Shown in pieces: positions 774 to 8,906 of a DNA stretch of 13,579 nucleotides (its first letter is position 1; each line of letters opens with the position of its first letter). The notes under the pieces were generated by a model that had not been told where the DNA came from, ran no database searches, and was given only the letters and a program-made list of their open reading frames with translations. A program made the position numbers and the translations under genes. The stretch covers positions 1-13,579 of IMG/VR virus record IMGVR_UViG_2695420792_000010; one strand, 5' to 3'. The stretch comes from a virus (Duplodnaviria > Heunggongvirae > Uroviricota > Caudoviricetes).

Positions 774-1676
774 TTACCTTCGGTTAGCGTATGTATTTTT
801 CCAGTAATACGTCGTGTCACCACAAATCCACGGCACATCTGCAGCACTGCCACCATGGCACTGCGCGTTAAACACGGAGAGGTCAGCACGAAACTGTGTC
901 AGCATGGCTGTAAACAGCGCAGGTTGCTGTGCGTGGGTGGCGGCGCTCATGTCAAACTCTCCCTGCATCCAGCACACCGCCAGCAACACATTTTTCGGGT
1001 TCTTCTGTAATGCAGCTTTAGTGCGCGCAATCAGGTCCTGATATAACGGTTTACCCACACCCCAGCGCGCCGAATCCTGGCTGGCCCCCGTGTCCGCACT
1101 GAATGTCCCCTCAGCGCCCTGGGTGAATGCAGAACCACCACGACAGCATGGTACCAGCAGGATCCCCGCGTTATTCGGGATATACGGAAGCAGTTTTTTG
1201 GCAATATGTAAGCCCTGGCCGACACAGCCGTACTGCCCTTTGCTCAGGTCTGCCTTCGGATGATTCAGCGTACTCATATCCTGCACATCATGCAGGCAGT
1301 GGTCGGCCGGAATAATATCGTTATATCTGCAGGCAGCCCCACCCGGCGTCACTGTACTGCGGCGCGCCAGCTGTTTAATGCGCGGATCCGGAGCATCGTA
1401 TGAATCCGGCAGCGGAAGCCCTTCACCGTAAGCCATGGCATTGGACTGCCCGGCCAGTACGATGACGTAGTACCAATCCGGCTCAGTTGCACCACTGACC
1501 ACCACATCACCTTCTGCTGTAATCGCCTGCATCAGAGTATAAGGGGTTATGGCCACCGGACTACCAAACGGCTGCCAGCCCTCTTTCAGTTTATGTGTCA
1601 GCTTTTCCGCAAGATCTGATGGCGACGCCGCCCTGACAACATCATAGTGTTTAAATTCCATGGTTCTTTCCACCAT
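774..1676 (-). CDS. Prophage NanS-p-like sialate O-acetylesterase (DUF1737-like N-terminus plus SASA/GDSL-like esterase domain), short relative to typical NanS-p
   Basis: 300-aa ORF. N-terminus MEFKHYDVVRAASPSDLAEKLTHKLKEGWQPFG resembles the DUF1737 domain of prophage NanS-p; VIVLAGQSNAMAYGEG carries the GQSN esterase motif. ATG at 1676 has no Shine-Dalgarno; the ATG at 1661 is preceded by GGTGGAAAG and may be the true start. Stop TAA at 774-776. The family's C-terminal domain appears to be missing (recollection of family architecture). Confidence 0.7.
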   Translation of the reverse strand: MVERTMEFKHYDVVRAASPSDLAEKLTHKLKEGWQPFGSPVAITPYTLMQAITAEGDVVVSGATEPDWYYVIVLAGQSNAMAYGEGLPLPDSYDAPDPRIKQLARRSTVTPGGAACRYNDIIPADHCLHDVQDMSTLNHPKADLSKGQYGCVGQGLHIAKKLLPYIPNNAGILLVPCCRGGSAFTQGAEGTFSADTGASQDSARWGVGKPLYQDLIARTKAALQKNPKNVLLAVCWMQGEFDMSAATHAQQPALFTAMLTQFRADLSVFNAQCHGGSAADVPWICGDTTYYWKNTYANRR

Positions 1677-1920
1677 CTGAAAAATAATTCTTTAAAATAC
1701 CTGACATGTAATACAGAAAAAACACAAAACCATACCTTAAATAAAAACCTGATTATCAAGCAGATATGCATGGATAAACTACAAGACGAGATATAAACCA
1801 CCCTGTATTTAAATAAACAATAAACAACATCAGAAAAATAATTCTGCTCTATGGTTTAATTCAAAAATATCATTTATACTTTTCAGAACATCACCAGCAA
1901 GGCATAAACAAGGAAAGTAA

Positions 1921-2256
1921 ATGAAGTGGATTGTGATTGATACAGTTATCCAGCCATCATGCGGAATATCTTTTTCAGTCATATGGAGTAAAATAAAATT
2001 AATAATCTGGTATCAATCGGATGCTTTCTTACCTCCTGAAAGTATATTTACACTGACTCACACAGGTATCATGCTCAATAACAAAGTGCTACCTGTAACC
2101 ATTTACAACATAGTACCATTCAATAAAACATTCTGGAATTTAATCAAAAACAGCCAGGAATGCCCTACAAATACAGATAACGTATTGAATGAATGCTTTA
2201 ATAACCGTTGCACTCTGCAAATATGTCCTTATGGGCTAAAACAACAAAATCCATAA
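1921..2256 (+). CDS. Hypothetical AT-rich ORF (111 aa), no recognisable family
   Basis: ATG preceded by AAGGAAAG Shine-Dalgarno-like sequence 4 nt upstream; AT-rich codon usage; Ile/Asn-rich product with 6 Cys. Could be chance translation of AT-rich DNA. Confidence 0.2.
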
Positions 2257-2280
2257 GGAGTTTACTCACATCTGACAAAA

Positions 2281-2311
2281 TCAATATAAACAGCCCCTCC
2301 GGAGAGGGGCT
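2281..2311. terminator. GC-rich hairpin (8-bp perfect stem AGCCCCTC / GAGGGGCT, loop CGGA); U-run follows on the minus strand
   Basis: Stem 2292-2299 pairs with 2304-2311. On the minus strand the hairpin is followed by TTTATATTGATTTT; on the plus strand there is no U-run. Lies 36 nt after the stop of the 1921..2256 ORF. Confidence 0.35.
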
Positions 2312-2703
2312 GGAGAGTGGCGCTATGTGCCATTGCATGGTGCCGAGTGCCTCCCGGTGAATTCAGTACCAGCACCTGAATCCGCGATTATCCCATATAC
2401 CTACTCGCTGATTGCCCCTCCGCACAGGGGGATTCACCATGCCAGTTTCTTTTAACAAACTCCCCGCAAACCAGACAACAGTCAACCGCCTGAATTGTGA
2501 AGTATTTAAAAATTTCTCCCGCTAACTGATACCCGGCTAACAGTCTGGCGTTTTCTTTTTCAGCAACGGGAAAGCAACAACCACCACACCCGCCACCAGC
2601 ACACCGTCAGCCAGCACTGACATTATCCGGCTGCTGCAATGCCATTCACAAAAACAGTAAGCAATCACTTTTTACCGTAACAGGTGATAATCCAGATATG
2701 TAT

Positions 2704-3030
2704 CTACCCCAGATGAGTAATCCGAAGTTCATCCATACCACAGGTCCTGGCTATTCTGTTGTACTCCTGAACAAGAGCAAATAATTCTGAATTAGCAACC
2801 ATGAACTCATCGCAAACCCTCTGTATAGCATCACTATTCAGAATAATAACGTCTCTTCCCGAAAGACGATCAGGAGTACAGAACAAAACTGTCAAACGGC
2901 TGAAGGCCTTTGCTCGTGCTGCATTGACTATATCAATACGCTGCCTAAGGATGAAACACCCCGACGCCTCATCAATATTCACTCTACCCACACCATATGA
3001 ATGATAAATATTTAATGCTGAAAAAACCAT
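2704..3030 (-). CDS. Hypothetical AT-rich ORF (about 108 aa from the first ATG; ORF track gives a TTG start at 3057)
   Basis: Open frame ending ...ELRITHLG with stop TAG at 2704; no Shine-Dalgarno identified; no family recognised. May be a gene fragment. Confidence 0.15.
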   Translation of the reverse strand: MVFSALNIYHSYGVGRVNIDEASGCFILRQRIDIVNAARAKAFSRLTVLFCTPDRLSGRDVIILNSDAIQRVCDEFMVANSELFALVQEYNRIARTCGMDELRITHLG

Positions 3031-3167
3031 TAGACCGTATAACAAATATTCAATCAATACTTAACAGAACTTTTATTTTTGACAAACATATAATATTTTC
3101 AACAATATCCTGAGCCAGGTATATTTCAGTATAAGGCTCTGCCGGAAGGAATCTGGAAGAATGAATA

Positions 3168-3244
3168 TGGCGCGCTGTACTGGATTCGAACCAGTGACCG
3201 ATTGCTTAGAAGGCAATTGCTCTGTCCGGCTGAGCTAACAACGC
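3168..3244 (-). tRNA. tRNA-Arg, anticodon UCU (reads AGA), phage-borne
   Basis: Reverse complement GCGTTGTTAGCTCAGCCGGACAGAGCAATTGCCTTCTAAGCAATCGGTCACTGGTTCGAATCCAGTACAGCGCGCCA. 7-bp acceptor stem (one G-U pair), anticodon stem ATTGC/GCAAT with loop CTTCTAA (anticodon TCT), T-arm GGTTCGAATCC, encoded CCA. Confidence 0.85.
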
Positions 3245-3345
3245 TGAATACCGATAATGGACCGCCATCGGGGACCCGCCCCCCGCACCAACAACCCTGT
3301 TATCGTGTCGTCTGCTCTTCCTGATAAGCTAATGGCGGTTTGTGA

Positions 3346-3421
3346 TGGTGGCCCTTGCTGGATTTGAACCAGCGACCTGGCGATTATGAGTCGCTCGCTC
3401 TCACCACTGAGCTAAAGGGCC
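3346..3421 (-). tRNA. tRNA with CAU anticodon (tRNA-Ile2 lysidine type or tRNA-Met), phage-borne
   Basis: Reverse complement GGCCCTTTAGCTCAGTGGTGAGAGCGAGCGACTCATAATCGCCAGGTCGCTGGTTCAAATCCAGCAAGGGCCACCA. Perfect 7-bp acceptor stem GGCCCTT/AAGGGCC, anticodon loop CTCATAA, T-arm GGTTCAAATCC, encoded CCA. Resembles E. coli ileX-type tRNA (recollection). Confidence 0.85.
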
Positions 3422-6460: not shown

Positions 6461-6489
6461 CAGATAAAATAAACCCGCCGAAGCGGGTT
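6461..6489 (-). terminator. Intrinsic terminator of the hok transcript
   Basis: Stem AACCCGC (6472-6478) / GCGGGTT (6483-6489), loop CGAA; followed on the minus strand by TATTTTAT (complement of 6461-6471). Confidence 0.5.
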
Positions 6490-6557
6490 AAGCGCGGGTG
6501 CGTTGAGGATGCCTGACACATCAGAGGCGGCGAGGGATTTCTCCCTCGCCAGGTCTC

Positions 6558-6713
6558 TTACTCCTCAGGTTCGTAAGCTGTGAAGACAGCGACCTCCGTC
6601 TGGCCGGTTCGGATTCGTACCTCGCAGAGGTCTTTCCTCGTTACCAGTGCCGTCACTATGACGGTTAAACAGATGACGATAAGGGCGATTAACATCGCCT
6701 TTTGCTGCTTCAT
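6558..6713 (-). CDS. hok: Hok/Gef-family type I toxin (HokD/RelF-like small membrane toxin)
   Basis: 51-aa product MKQQKAMLIALIVICLTVIVTALVTRKDLCEVRIRTGQTEVAVFTAYEPEE matches the Hok/Gef family and, as I recall, HokD (RelF) almost exactly. AAGGAGA Shine-Dalgarno 8 nt upstream. An in-frame upstream ATG at 6770 would add 19 codons (MSHKCRLASYVPKGKEKQA). Confidence 0.85.
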   Translation of the reverse strand: MKQQKAMLIALIVICLTVIVTALVTRKDLCEVRIRTGQTEVAVFTAYEPEE

Positions 6714-7270
6714 AGCCTGCTTCTCCTTGCCTTTCGGCACGTAAGAGGCTAACCTACATTTGTGAGACATAGATTGGGCCTCAGATTAATGTTAAGCGTC
6801 TTGCAGGACGCGTAATGTTAACTGGGGCTTTTCTCTATCTGCCTTTTGGTGTTCATGCCTGAGGCAGATAGCCTCAAGCACCCGCAGCAATTCTAACTAT
6901 CCAATAGATCAATGCCAACTTCTTTTCCTGCAACATCTCTCATCATAAGTGACCAAAATTCATCCAATCAGCACAAAAGAAACATTTAAAGCGTGAATGC
7001 TACCGAACGTTCATTTCAATTACATCGTTTTGATTTTTAACAGTTTTTACCTCAACAAATCAAATGGCATTAGCATTCATCATGGAAGAAAGACTGATAA
7101 AAATGATCATTTTCAATGACTTATGATCACACCGGGTATTGCCAAGTCATTCCTTTTACGCCAGGATACCCACAAGTGAGTAGTCGAGGAGAGTTTGCCA
7201 ATTTTTGCGATATAAATTTCAATGTCCGAAGAACCATTAATTGTTAATTGATTCTGTATAAGGTATTAAC

Positions 7271-8368
7271 ATGACAATTTCATATATTCCTATTCTGAAA
7301 GCGAAACGTTCTGAGTTATCAGCTTTATCGCAGCTATTCATTGAAAAGAAATCAAAAATTTTGCCATTACTCGAAATTGAACCAGTGCCAATTGACCCTG
7401 ATTCAGGTATTGCCTTAAAGAGTTATAACGAGACTCTTATAGAGTTCGGAAAGAAAGTCTCAAAATCTTGCTCAGATATGCAAGGTGTTTATATTGATGG
7501 ATTATTAATTGAAGAGCATTTTATTTCTCCTGAAGATCATTACCCTATAATAAATGCGGTTAATCAAGTTAGAGATATGGGGATAAGAGTTATTCCTGTC
7601 AGTTCACCAACTCGCCCATCTAACTATAAAAGAGCGATTGATGAATTAATGCAGAATGAAATATGCTTGAGATTAACCACGTTAGATCTGGTTAACCCAC
7701 AATTAATAACGCATTACATTAATCATCTGGGAATTCCTTTATCAAATATTGATATAATTATTGACTTAAGAGATGAGTTAACCGAGGATAAACTTAATTC
7801 CGGCGAACTATATACTTTGGCAATGGGATTGATAAACAATCTGGCGCACCTCAATGAATACAGAAAAGTGATTCTTTCTGGGGGTTCATTTCCTACAGAT
7901 CTCAGTGATATTTCTGTTGGTCTATATTCTCAACCTCGAATCGAGTGGATTTTATGGCAGAGTTTAATGAATAGAAAAGAACTTGCCAGAAATGTGATTT
8001 ATAGTGATTATGGAGTACAGCACCCCGACTTTAATAGGCTTTCGACGCGATTCCCTAGCGTATCTGCCAGCGTCAGATACTCTGGAGATAATGACTTTTG
8101 GGTATTTCGAGGAAGAGTAGCTAATCGCTTTGGTTATGAACAATATGGTAAACATAGTGAGGATATTCTTGCTCATCGAGAATATTCAGGGCCTACATTC
8201 TGTGCGGGAGATAGAGACATAGAATATTATGCAAACGAGTATCAAGCCTACAAAGCCAATCCCTCTGGTAACTATAAATTTGGTAGCCCAGAGGTATGGC
8301 GTAGGATTGGGCAAAACCATCACATAACTAAGGTTGTTGAGCAACTCGCCACTCTTTACGGGCTTTAA
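7271..8368 (+). CDS. Uncharacterised 365-aa protein, first gene of the AT-rich convergent cassette (possibly the database family annotated as 'beta protein / sce7725')
   Basis: Clean ATG at 7271 with AAGG 9 nt upstream; stop TAA 8366-8368; uninterrupted 365 codons; strongly AT-rich, unlike the flanking phage genes. The N-terminal pattern MTISYIPILKAKRSELSAL reminds me of the 'beta protein' family, but this is unverified. Confidence 0.7.
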   Translation: MTISYIPILKAKRSELSALSQLFIEKKSKILPLLEIEPVPIDPDSGIALKSYNETLIEFGKKVSKSCSDMQGVYIDGLLIEEHFISPEDHYPIINAVNQVRDMGIRVIPVSSPTRPSNYKRAIDELMQNEICLRLTTLDLVNPQLITHYINHLGIPLSNIDIIIDLRDELTEDKLNSGELYTLAMGLINNLAHLNEYRKVILSGGSFPTDLSDISVGLYSQPRIEWILWQSLMNRKELARNVIYSDYGVQHPDFNRLSTRFPSVSASVRYSGDNDFWVFRGRVANRFGYEQYGKHSEDILAHREYSGPTFCAGDRDIEYYANEYQAYKANPSGNYKFGSPEVWRRIGQNHHITKVVEQLATLYGL

Positions 8369-8906
8369 GTTTAACTCGAACAGCTTCACGAAGCTCGCCA
8401 ACATCCATACTATTGGCGAGTTTTGACCATAAGACGCGTTTAGGTTTATTTTTCAAATTCTGTAGCTCCCCTACATCACTTAATAGGGAAAGCAATTCAT
8501 CTTTCCAAAGAAGCATTGTTAAGGAAAGTTTGTCCACTTGTGGATTCAACTTGCTAGTTCGAATTGTTTTTAAATGGATACCTTGCCGTGCACCTTGCGT
8601 AACTTGCTTTATCCCCCACCATGATGGAACTATGCTTAAAGCATCATAAAGATGGCAATCAGAGACAACCAAAGTTACTTTATCCATCACTGATGAGTAA
8701 TGTTGCACCTGCGCTGGTAATCTGAGCAAGTTATCACTCTTGCTCTTCAACTCATAACCATGTATAAGCCCATTGATCACTGCTATATCAGCTCTGCTAG
8801 CCCCTAGATTCATCGTAAACTCATCAATGATTAGGGTGTCAGGATCTTTATGATGATCTCTCAGAATCTTGGCATGCACAGCCTTTCTTACATCAATGTC
8901 TCTCAT
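8328..8906 (-). CDS. Uncharacterised 192-aa protein with N-terminal PD-(D/E)xK nuclease-like motif (possibly 'sce7726 family'), second gene of the AT-rich cassette
   Basis: ATG at 8906, stop TAG at 8328-8330. Motif LIIDEF...RADIAVINGLIHGYELKS fits the restriction-endonuclease fold pattern (D40 ... E52-x-K54, preceded by D28/E29). AT-rich. Weak Shine-Dalgarno. Confidence 0.7.
   Translation of the reverse strand: MRDIDVRKAVHAKILRDHHKDPDTLIIDEFTMNLGASRADIAVINGLIHGYELKSKSDNLLRLPAQVQHYSSVMDKVTLVVSDCHLYDALSIVPSWWGIKQVTQGARQGIHLKTIRTSKLNPQVDKLSLTMLLWKDELLSLLSDVGELQNLKNKPKRVLWSKLANSMDVGELREAVRVKLKARKEWRVAQQP

What the first reader, a model, noticed from the sequence alone, without database searches (positions are those of the whole stretch)
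6461..6900. Hok/Gef type I toxin locus with structured flanks and an in-frame upstream ORF, but without the relBE genes I recall next to hokD in K-12
Seen: a 51-aa Hok-family toxin with a strong Shine-Dalgarno; a perfect 9-bp hairpin immediately 3' of the stop (6529-6550, GGCGAGGGA/TCCCTCGCC, GAAA loop on the minus strand) followed by an intrinsic terminator (6472-6489); a 9-bp inverted repeat in the 5' leader (6835-6843 / 6863-6871); and an in-frame upstream ATG (6770) adding 19 codons. Established knowledge: hok mRNAs are controlled by long-range 5'-3' pairing, a leader ORF (mok) and an antisense Sok RNA transcribed from the opposite strand over the leader. Inference: this copy may keep an autonomous hok/sok-type control region, and a Sok-like antisense RNA would be expected on the plus strand around 6740-6840, though I could not assign its promoter. 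The toxin sits directly beside the AT-rich candidate defence cassette.
Basis: partly seen in the sequence, partly recalled or inferred. Interest (0 to 1): 0.5.

Follow-up and report, generated by a model that had tools for sequence, protein, structure and literature searches.

The report
Intact prophage hok/mok/sok toxin-antitoxin cassette
This is an ordinary, complete copy of the well-known hok/sok RNA-controlled toxin-antitoxin module, the same type already annotated and tested as hokW/sokW in Shiga-toxin phages, sitting in a lambda-like E. coli prophage; the K-12 'hokD next to relBE' arrangement is the truncated version.

Summary
The 51-aa ORF (6713-6558, minus) is 100% identical to K-12 HokD. 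The in-frame ATG at 6770 is mok, with the same 19-codon extension as R1 mok and K-12 mokC. The leader matches Rfam RF01794 (121.7 bits). The cassette runs from its own promoter (6918-6890) to its terminator (6489-6472). A Sok antisense gene maps to the plus strand at 6762 to about 6836, with a homologous promoter (TTGCCT, 17 nt, TAACCT; 6727-6755). Folding reproduces the published hok pathway: a 5'-3' tac/fbi lock, ucb occluding the mok SD, and a tac/ucb alternative after 3' trimming. Across 62 Enterobacterales loci, tac covaries with fbi. K-12 hokD keeps only 6471-6727; relBE replaces the control region there, and the window has no relBE. The locus is 93% identical to hokW/mokW/sokW of phage 933W/Sp5, shown experimentally to be a working type I TA, and matches occur in 4,727 of 5,426 complete E. 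coli genomes. Verdict: already known, low interest. Minor extras are an 18-nt structured cap on the Sok hairpin and a hypervariable patch at the Sok 5' tail.

The parts
6890..6918 (-). hok/mok mRNA promoter: -35 TTGGCA (6918-6913), 17-nt spacer, -10 TAGAAT (6895-6890); start site about 6883
   Evidence: 10 of 12 consensus matches. It sits 7 nt upstream of the first position of the Rfam model. It aligns with the -10 regions of hokC and R1. Sequence conservation among 59 phage relatives begins here.
6464..6883 (-). Full-length hok mRNA (about 420 nt); ends inferred, not mapped
   Evidence: Rfam model start and terminator. MFE -174 kcal/mol, z=-8.1.
6872..6883 (-). tac (translational activator) element, GGGUGCUUGAGG, the 5' end of the mRNA
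   Evidence: Pairs with fbi in the full-length MFE and with ucb in the 60-nt nascent fold and the constrained truncated fold. Near-invariant among relatives (entropy 0.02).
6856..6865 (-). Partner of tac in the metastable 5' hairpin of the nascent transcript
   Evidence: I7 (6856-6865 / 6871-6880). Fold of the first 38 nt gives -19.8 kcal/mol. Concept taken from PMC9841398.
6835..6871 (-). Inner leader hairpin, arms 6871-6862 and 6844-6835.
   Evidence: I1; Rfam consensus structure; folds.
6824..6830 (-). ucb / anti-SD box, AAGCCCC. It pairs with the mok SD in the full-length mRNA and with tac after 3' processing.
   Evidence: Folds; Rfam consensus; definition from PMC9841398.
6778..6828 (-). 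Long hairpin of the leader. On the opposite strand it is the Sok stem-loop and terminator.
   Evidence: Entropy 0.044 among relatives.
6797..6814 (-). 18-nt lineage-specific insertion forming a GCGUC-CUGCAA-GACGC cap on that hairpin
   Evidence: Shown as an insertion against the Rfam consensus and against hokC, hokB and R1. Present in all 80 IMG/VR relatives. Restricted to a subclade, with a compensatory change GCGUC/GACGC to ACGUC/GACGU.
6779..6782 (-). mok Shine-Dalgarno, GAGG
   Evidence: Read, 8 nt before ATG 6770. Paired in the full-length fold.
6558..6770 (-). mok ORF (70 aa), in frame with hok and sharing its stop codon
   Evidence: Same 19-codon extension as K-12 mokC and R1 and as in 20 of 62 family loci. 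Annotated mokW in 933W.
6745..6749 (-). dcb candidate, GCCUC, which pairs with the mok SD in the tac/ucb conformer. It lies between the Sok promoter hexamers, just upstream of the -10.
   Evidence: Constrained fold; the definition and its location within the Sok promoter come from PMC9841398. Assigned by inference.
6723..6728 (-). hok Shine-Dalgarno, AAGGAG
   Evidence: Read. Invariant CAAGGAGAA across the five-locus alignment.
6558..6713 (-). hok toxin ORF, 51 aa
   Evidence: RefSeq WP_000813254.1, annotated HokD.
6529..6550 (-). Perfect 9-bp hairpin after the stop codon. It is probably the 3' stem-loop that protects the processed mRNA.
   Evidence: I5; fold. The role is inferred from R1 (PMC9841398).
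6496..6509 (-). fbi (fold-back inhibitory) element, UCCUCAACGCACCC
   Evidence: Duplex with tac of -17.3 kcal/mol at UTR position 49. Perfect 8-nt core (I8). Covaries with tac across 62 loci.
6464..6489 (-). Intrinsic terminator of hok mRNA: stem 6489-6472 plus a T-tract
   Evidence: I10. Homology among relatives ends here.
6727..6755 (+). Sok promoter: -35 TTGCCT (6727-6732), 17-nt spacer, -10 TAACCT (6750-6755)
   Evidence: Placed by homology with R1, hokC, hokB and 933W. Hexamer and spacing statistics across 62 loci. Entropy 0.016. Mutating the sokW promoter abolishes antitoxin activity (PMC8621323).
6762..6836 (+). Predicted Sok antisense RNA, about 71-77 nt: a roughly 14-nt 5' tail over the mok start, a long stem-loop, then a U-rich tail
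   Evidence: K-12 sokC and sokB map to 6762-6838. 933W sokW maps to 6762-6832. Fold -30.7 kcal/mol; z=-4.8.

Best explanation
The region 6464-6918 is a complete, self-contained hok/mok/sok type I toxin-antitoxin cassette of the HokD/HokW lineage. It is carried as a moron in the early-right region of a lambdoid E. coli prophage, between the replication genes and the DUF968-RusA-Q genes.

Proposed mechanism:
1. A weak sigma-70 promoter makes a roughly 420-nt mRNA.
2. While the mRNA is nascent, its 5' end (tac) is held in a metastable hairpin.
3. In the finished transcript, tac pairs with fbi near the 3' end. The ucb box occludes the mok Shine-Dalgarno. The RNA is therefore neither translated nor bound by Sok.
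4. Slow 3' trimming removes fbi. tac then captures ucb, the mok SD is released, and mok translation allows coupled translation of the 51-aa membrane toxin Hok.
5. While the cassette is transcribed, the short-lived antisense Sok RNA (plus strand, 6762 to about 6836) pairs over the mok start and triggers decay of the activated mRNA.
6. When Sok synthesis stops, the stable mRNA pool is translated and Hok damages the inner membrane.

Shown here: sequence identity, presence and intactness of all elements, the predicted alternative folds, and tac/fbi covariation. Inferred from homologues: transcription of both RNAs, 3' processing, toxicity and Sok control. These were shown experimentally for the 93%-identical hokW-sokW and for R1.

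The most likely physiological trigger in this context is prophage induction, with Hok assisting lysis and phage release as reported for Sp5. Prophage stabilisation or abortive infection remain possible.
For: - Identity: Pfam HOK_GEF 3e-23. Hok is 100% identical to K-12 HokD. Rfam RF01794 scores 121.7 bits over 6883-6708.
- Promoter and terminator.
- Full-length MFE closes nt 1-12 onto 6509-6496, z=-8.1.
- ViennaRNA reproduces four states: the metastable hairpin; the tac/ucb stem; the mok SD paired to ucb in the full-length form; and the mok SD paired to dcb in the tac/ucb conformer, only 0.8 kcal/mol above the truncated MFE.
- tac/fbi test on 62 unique Enterobacterales loci: cognate -17.35 against non-cognate -15.05 kcal/mol. 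Five of six multi-member tac classes pair best with their own class. fbi sits at a fixed distance, with its 5' edge about 46-56 nt after the stop.
- sokC, sokB and sokW annotations all map to 6762 to about 6832-6838 on the plus strand. The Sok promoter hexamers are conserved.
- The cassette is 93.4% identical to hokW/mokW/sokW of 933W and VT2-Sakai. Takada 2021 (PMC8621323) showed for that locus: HokW toxicity, rescue by sokW from its own promoter, loss of rescue in a promoter-less mutant, Northern detection of both RNAs, and a twofold effect on Sp5 release.
- Conservation among 59 phage relatives starts at the -35 and ends at the terminator. CDS entropy is 0.039.
Against: - There are no expression or toxicity data for this exact copy.
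- The Sok -10 (TAACCT) matches consensus at only 3 of 6 positions, and the consensus scan did not find it.
- The unconstrained MFE of the hypothetical truncated RNA shows the metastable hairpin, not the tac/ucb stem. The tac/ucb form is 0.8 kcal/mol less stable, and the true 3' processing site is unknown.
- Chromosomal hok loci tested earlier (hokA, hokB, hokC) did not mediate post-segregational killing, as summarised in preprint 10.1101/2025.08.07.668861.
- The cognate versus non-cognate comparison is not corrected for phylogeny.
Confidence: 0.9

Rival explanations
1. It is an inactive relic. Like most K-12 chromosomal hok loci, this copy is no longer expressed or no longer regulated, and is carried passively by the prophage.
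For: K-12 hokD is truncated. K-12 hokC has IS186 just downstream of the toxin gene. The preprint summarises that tested chromosomal hok loci did not mediate post-segregational killing. No expression data exist for this copy.
Against: Every element is intact: promoter, tac, ucb, mok SD, mok, dcb, hok SD, hok ORF, fbi, terminator, Sok promoter and Sok stem-loop. All are near-invariant in 59 distinct phage contigs, while the flanks diverge. The 93%-identical hokW-sokW is functional (PMC8621323). HokD peptide is toxic when expressed.
Confidence: 0.06
2. It is a relBE-hokD type arrangement, as in K-12 Qin. In that case hok would be the distal gene of a type II TA operon, without its own antisense control.
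For: The Hok protein is identical to K-12 HokD. The position in the prophage is syntenic: hok, then DUF968, then Q.
Against: There is no relB or relE similarity at DNA level or protein level (best E=2.8). Homology with K-12 stops at 6727, inside the hok SD. Upstream lies a full hok leader, RF01794 at 121.7 bits, which K-12 Qin lacks.
Confidence: 0.01
3. The molecular module is the same, but its main role is abortive-infection defence against superinfecting phages. It would act alongside the adjacent Beta-protein/sce7726 cassette as a small defence island. Shut-off of host transcription by an invader depletes Sok and releases Hok.
For: R1 hok/sok on a high-copy plasmid reduces T4 plating (cited in PMC8621323). 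The neighbours hit PADLOC models: PD-Lambda-2_C at 6.5e-41 and 'cll' at 2.4e-28. The cassette has the autonomous moron architecture.
Against: The preprint found no enrichment of hok next to defence systems. The hok cassette occurs with many different left flanks, so the adjacency is not fixed. The only direct data for this lineage point to a pro-phage role at induction (PMC8621323).
Confidence: 0.2

Closest known systems
hokW / mokW / sokW of Stx2 phage 933W and Sakai prophage Sp5 (AF125520.1; Takada et al. 2021, PMC8621323)
   Same: Identity is 93.4% over 88% of the query. The layout is the same: a 70-aa Mok, a 51-aa Hok, and a Sok 5' end 8 nt inside mok. The tac, ucb, fbi and Sok promoter sequences are identical, and the 18-nt hairpin cap differs at a single loop base. 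It is phage-borne.
   Different: mok codons 2-4 and the Sok 5' tail differ (TCTCAC against CTGAAC). There are a few C-terminal Hok substitutions. The sequence downstream of fbi differs, including the terminator. In the 933W record the locus lies near the far end of the genome, with different neighbours, instead of between the replication genes and Q.
hokD (relF) of the E. coli K-12 Qin prophage
   Same: The Hok protein is identical. Identity is 97.7% over window 6471-6727, covering the hok ORF, 3' hairpin, fbi and terminator. The position is syntenic, upstream of DUF968 (ydfU) and Q (ydfT).
   Different: K-12 lacks everything upstream of 6727: promoter, tac, ucb, mok start and sok. It has relBE there instead and gives no RF01794 hit.
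hokC (gef) / mokC / sokC of the E. coli chromosome
   Same: It is a close paralogue. The leader aligns throughout, mok has the same 19-codon in-frame extension, and sokC maps onto window 6762-6838.
   Different: It has no 18-nt cap. Its Sok -35 is TTGACC with an 18-nt spacer. It sits at a chromosomal site next to nhaA, and in K-12 IS186 interrupts the 3' UTR.
hok/sok (parB) of plasmid R1, the reference system
   Same: All named elements and the order of conformers are shared: metastable hairpin, tac/fbi, ucb/mok SD, tac/ucb and mok SD/dcb. mok is in frame with 19 extra codons, and the Sok promoter overlaps the hok SD.
   Different: The toxin and leader are diverged: RF01794 scores 87 bits in R1 against 122 here, and HokW is reported as 44% identical to R1 Hok (PMC8621323). 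tac is GGCGC paired with fbi GCGCC, against GGGUGC with GCACCC here. R1 has a long insertion in the inner leader hairpin instead of the Sok-hairpin cap. It is plasmid-borne with a proven post-segregational killing role.

Membership tests
[quoted passage not shown] | Hok/Gef-family toxin ORF of about 50 aa with an N-terminal transmembrane helix | tested here: met
   Pfam HOK_GEF E=3e-23, 81.6 bits against a cutoff of 22. 100% identical to K-12 HokD.
[quoted passage not shown] | Overlapping leader ORF (mok) that starts upstream with its own SD and is the target of Sok | tested here: met
   ATG 6770 gives a 70-aa ORF, preceded by GAGG 8 nt upstream. The register matches mokC, R1 mok and mokW.
[quoted passage not shown] | Conserved structured 5' leader of the toxin mRNA | tested here: met
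   RF01794 scores 121.7 bits against a gathering score of 59, full-length model match 1-157.
[quoted passage not shown] | Long-range tac/fbi pairing between the 5' and 3' ends of the full-length mRNA | tested here: met
   MFE pairs nt 1-12 with 6509-6496, z=-8.1. Perfect 8-nt core (I8). Covariation across 62 loci.
[quoted passage not shown] | Alternative pairings: ucb with the mok SD (closed form), tac with ucb plus mok SD with dcb (open form), and a metastable 5' hairpin | tested here: met
   All are obtained with ViennaRNA. The open form lies 0.8 kcal/mol above the truncated MFE. This is thermodynamic prediction only.
[quoted passage not shown] | cis-encoded antisense Sok gene, with promoter and stem-loop terminator, overlapping the mok start | tested here: met
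   Promoter TTGCCT-17-TAACCT at the homologous position. The stem-loop folds at -30.7 kcal/mol and is followed by UUUUCUCU. sokC, sokB and sokW map here. Transcription itself was not tested.
[quoted passage not shown] | Toxicity of Hok, neutralisation by Sok, and 3' processing of the mRNA | not testable with these tools
   Shown for the 93%-identical hokW-sokW (PMC8621323). HokD is listed among toxic controls. 3' processing is shown only for R1.
relBE-hokD operon arrangement (K-12 Qin) | relB and relE genes immediately upstream of hok, replacing the hok leader | tested here: not met
   No DNA similarity to the K-12 relBE segment. tblastn with RelE gives a best E of 2.8, and RelB gives no hit.

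The most novel reading that the evidence does not exclude
Among otherwise near-identical phage-borne hok/sok cassettes, the only hypervariable patch is window 6767-6764 (plus 6760). This is Sok nt 3-6 and the apical part of the hok target hairpin. There are at least 13 alleles in 120 loci. Sok and its target are encoded on opposite strands, so any change alters both together. The patch could therefore be a specificity code that keeps the several hok/sok copies in poly-lysogens from cross-neutralising each other, so that each prophage's Sok protects only against its own Hok.
Probability: 0.15. Interest if true: 0.4.

Novelty: already known. Interest (0 to 1): 0.1.

Why it matters
It matters little as a discovery. 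It mainly makes the annotation cleaner:
- RefSeq labels only a 'HokD' CDS here, but the locus is a full hok/mok/sok cassette with a predicted Sok RNA and an autonomous promoter and terminator.
- It shows that the textbook K-12 relBE-hokD arrangement is the degenerate form of a module that is intact in many lambdoid prophages.
- It warns that Rfam's 'sok' model matches the hok-sense leader strand, so the hit's strand is not the strand of Sok.

If the Sok-tail hypervariability reflects selected orthogonality, it would bear on how poly-lysogens keep multiple type I TA copies independent. That is unproven.

Tried and rejected
1. relBE-like sequence: searched at DNA level and protein level. None found.
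2. Consensus promoter scan for Sok: found nothing on the plus strand because the -10 matches only 3 of 6 positions. The promoter was assigned by homology instead.
3. The repeat is the inner hairpin.
4. Covariation within the 80 closest IMG/VR relatives: tac and fbi are invariant there, so this was uninformative. It was replaced by the cross-genus scan.
5. Unconstrained MFE of a hypothetical truncated mRNA: gave the metastable hairpin, not the tac/ucb stem. The tac/ucb form had to be enforced and is 0.8 kcal/mol less stable.
6. Test of Sok-tail orthogonality using same-genome prophage pairs: 5 of 6 pairs differ, against about 5.1 of 6 expected by chance. No support, and too few pairs.
7. PADLOC on Hok itself: no model hit.
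8. About a third of the genome contigs pattern matches lay in unrelated MAGs and had no Hok ORF. They were discarded as chance matches.

Full report
**1. Observation**

Reading the minus strand and the ORF list confirms each item.
- The 51-aa ORF runs from 6713 to 6558.
- AAGGAG sits at 6728-6723, 9 nt before the ATG.
- An in-frame ATG at 6770 gives a 70-aa ORF, 19 extra codons.
- A perfect 9-bp hairpin (GGCGAGGGA-GAAA-TCCCTCGCC) lies at 6550-6529 (I5).
- A terminator (AACCCGC-TTCG-GCGGGTT plus a T-tract) lies at 6489-6472 (I10).
- The 9-bp leader repeat at 6863-6871 / 6835-6843 is the core of a longer hairpin (I1).

The protein hits Pfam HOK_GEF at 3e-23. The leader hits Rfam RF01794 'sok' at 121.7 bits, E=6.6e-28, over 6883-6708. 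The hit is on the hok-sense strand. An R1-type control locus is also hit on the hok-sense strand. The model therefore describes the hok mRNA leader, and its strand must not be read as the strand of Sok.

**2. Context**

The locus matches in 4,727 of 5,426 complete E. coli genomes. There is a median of 2 and up to 10 places per genome, and 592 genomes cover at least 80% of the query. RefSeq annotates only a 'HokD' CDS (WP_000813254.1).

The surrounding genes are a lambdoid prophage early region. In order they are:
- cI-like repressor, Cro and YdaT;
- replication genes and DUF977;
- sce7726 and Beta_protein;
- hok;
- DUF968, RusA and Q;
- two tRNAs and STnc100;
- a NanS-p-like esterase.

**3. 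Comparison with K-12**

In K-12 Qin the gene order is relB-relE-hokD-rem-ydfU(DUF968)-ydfT(Q). The window matches K-12 only at 6471-6727 (97.7%) and again in DUF968. The break falls inside the hok SD.

K-12 has therefore lost the hok promoter, tac, ucb, the mok start and sok, with relBE in their place. K-12 Qin gives no RF01794 hit. The window has no RelB or RelE similarity, and its Hok is 100% identical to HokD.

**4. Anatomy**

A sigma-70-like promoter (TTGGCA, 17 nt, TAGAAT; 6918-6890) is placed to start transcription at about 6883, the first position of the Rfam model. Alignment with K-12 hokC/sokC, K-12 hokB/sokB and R1-type hok puts the annotated sokC and sokB on window plus strand 6762-6838. 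The sokW feature of phage 933W starts 8 nt inside mokW, the same register, and is 71 nt long, which maps to 6762-6832.

Immediately upstream on the plus strand lies TTGCCT (6727-6732), 17 nt, TAACCT (6750-6755). In 62 unique family loci the -35 always begins with TTG, derived from the hok SD on the other strand. The spacer is 17 or 18 nt. TAACCT is the commonest -10 (17 of 62), and nearly all variants keep TA...T.

The predicted Sok has a 5' tail of about 14 nt over the mok start, a long stem-loop, and UUUUCUCU. It folds at -30.7 kcal/mol, with z=-4.8.

**5. Mechanism**

Element names follow the definitions in PMC9841398.
- Full-length transcript (6883-6464): the MFE is -174 kcal/mol, z=-8.1. 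Nucleotides 1-12 (GGGUGCUUGAGG, tac) close onto CCUCAA-C-GCACCC at 6509-6496 (fbi). The mok SD is paired to GCCCC (ucb).
- Nascent transcript: the first 38 nt form the metastable tac hairpin (-19.8).
- Truncated RNA: in an RNA cut hypothetically at 6512, the tac/ucb conformer lies only 0.8 kcal/mol above the MFE. In it the mok SD GAGGC pairs with GCCUC at 6749-6745 (dcb), inside the Sok promoter region as described for R1.

These are predictions, not measurements, and the real processing site is unknown.

**6. Comparative test**

A motif scan of one genome per species yielded 62 unique Hok loci from Escherichia, Shigella, Citrobacter, Kluyvera, Atlantibacter, Pantoea, Serratia, Erwinia and other genera. 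Seven tac variants occur among them.

Each locus's tac pairs better with its own 3' UTR (-17.35 +/- 2.39 kcal/mol) than with the UTRs of loci that have a different tac (-15.05 +/- 2.28). Five of the six multi-member tac classes are most stable with their own class, and the 5' edge of the site lies about 46-56 nt after the stop. Examples are GGUGC with GCACC, GGCGC with GCGCC, and GAGAC with UUCUC.

This is covariation of the kind long described for the family. It is not corrected for phylogeny.

**7. Already known**

Seventy-nine phage records carry the cassette. Phage 933W and VT2-Sakai annotate it as mokW, hokW and sokW, and phage Rac-SA53 annotates mok and hok next to the same 'beta' / 'CII-like' pair as here. 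Window and 933W are nearly identical across tac, the inner hairpin, ucb, the Sok hairpin, the Sok promoter, hok and fbi.

Takada et al. 2021 (PMC8621323) reported the following for hokW-sokW:
- HokW is toxic.
- sokW expressed from its own promoter neutralises it, and a promoter-less mutant does not.
- Both RNAs are detectable on Northern blots.
- After mitomycin C, sokW disappears and HokW accumulates in the inner membrane in a RecA-dependent manner.
- Deleting the locus halves Sp5 release.

A 2025-26 preprint documents enrichment of hok in prophages.

**8. Cassette boundaries and variation**

Among 59 unique IMG/VR relatives, similarity starts at the hok -35 and ends just after the terminator, and the flanks are unrelated. 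This is moron-like behaviour.

Mean column entropies within the transcript are:

| Region | Entropy |
|---|---|
| tac | 0.02 |
| Sok promoter | 0.016 |
| hok CDS | 0.039 |
| whole transcript | 0.107 |
| 6767-6759 | 0.77 |

The variable patch at 6767-6759 corresponds to mok codons 2-4, the first nucleotides of the Sok 5' tail (the variable sites are Sok nt 3-6), and the top of the target hairpin. There are 13 alleles among 120 loci. I tested whether co-resident prophages avoid sharing an allele. Five of six pairs differ, and 5.1 of 6 would be expected by chance, so there is no support at this sample size.

The 18-nt cap (6814-6797) on the Sok/target hairpin is specific to the HokD/W subclade and a few Pseudocitrobacter and Pantoea loci. 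It shows a compensatory G-C to A-U change.

**9. Verdict**

The locus is a standard, apparently intact member of a thoroughly characterised family, with a near-identical and experimentally studied homologue. Interest is low. The only open thread is the meaning of the Sok-tail hypervariability.

Noticed in passing
window 7271-8368 (+) and 8328-8906 (-): A convergent, overlapping, AT-rich gene pair (32-43% GC). One gene is a Beta_protein (PF14350, 2.3e-51; PADLOC PD-Lambda-2_C, 6.5e-41). The other is an sce7726-family protein (PADLOC 'cll', 2.4e-28). The same pair sits next to hok in E. coli 2013C-3264 and in phage Rac-SA53. It is a candidate phage-borne defence cassette.
   Followed up: partly
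window 6760-6767: A hypervariable patch at mok codons 2-3, Sok nt 3-6 and the loop of the Sok-target hairpin, within otherwise near-invariant phage hok/sok cassettes. There are 13 alleles in 120 loci, and the window's allele TCTCACAAA occurs in 18 of 120. The co-residence test was uninformative.
   Followed up: partly
window 6797-6814: An 18-nt insertion forms a GCGUC-CUGCAA-GACGC cap on the Sok/target hairpin. This would make Sok about 71-77 nt, against 57-59 nt for the annotated K-12 sokB and sokC. It is restricted to the HokD/W subclade and shows a compensatory change in Pseudocitrobacter.
   Followed up: yes
window 6572-6575 (hok codon 47, TAC followed by G): The Tyr47 codon lies in a UACG context, the motif of TadA A-to-I editing. 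According to preprint 10.1101/2025.08.07.668861, this editing recodes Tyr to Cys in hokB and also occurs in hokC, hokD and hokE. A second TACG at hok nt 95 is out of frame.
   Followed up: no
window 6708-6883: Rfam RF01794 is named 'sok antitoxin' but matches the hok-sense strand, both here and in an R1-type control. Automated annotation from this model would place Sok on the wrong strand and with the wrong extent.
   Followed up: yes
window 774-3421: Downstream of Q lie tRNA-Met(CAT) at 3346-3421 and tRNA-Arg(TCT) at 3168-3244. These are followed by an STnc100 sRNA match (2282-2471, 129 bits) and a NanS-p-like esterase (DUF1737+SASA, 774-1676). This is the layout of Stx-type lambdoid phages, but no ORF of StxA size lies between the tRNAs and the esterase.
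   Followed up: no
phage record PP818812.1 (hit H49): The best phage-database match (98.6% identity) is a record named Actinobacillus phage vB_Apl-pPE4. That is an unexpected host for an E. coli-type lambdoid hok cassette, and suggests a mis-assigned host or contamination.
   Followed up: no
L195 and L189 (genome contigs): Short contigs binned into non-enterobacterial MAGs (Ferruginibacter sp., 'Proteobacteria bacterium CTSoil') carry enterobacterial Hok loci. L195 begins with the same residues as R1 Hok (MKLPRSSLVWCV). These are probably mis-binned plasmid or phage contigs.
   Followed up: no
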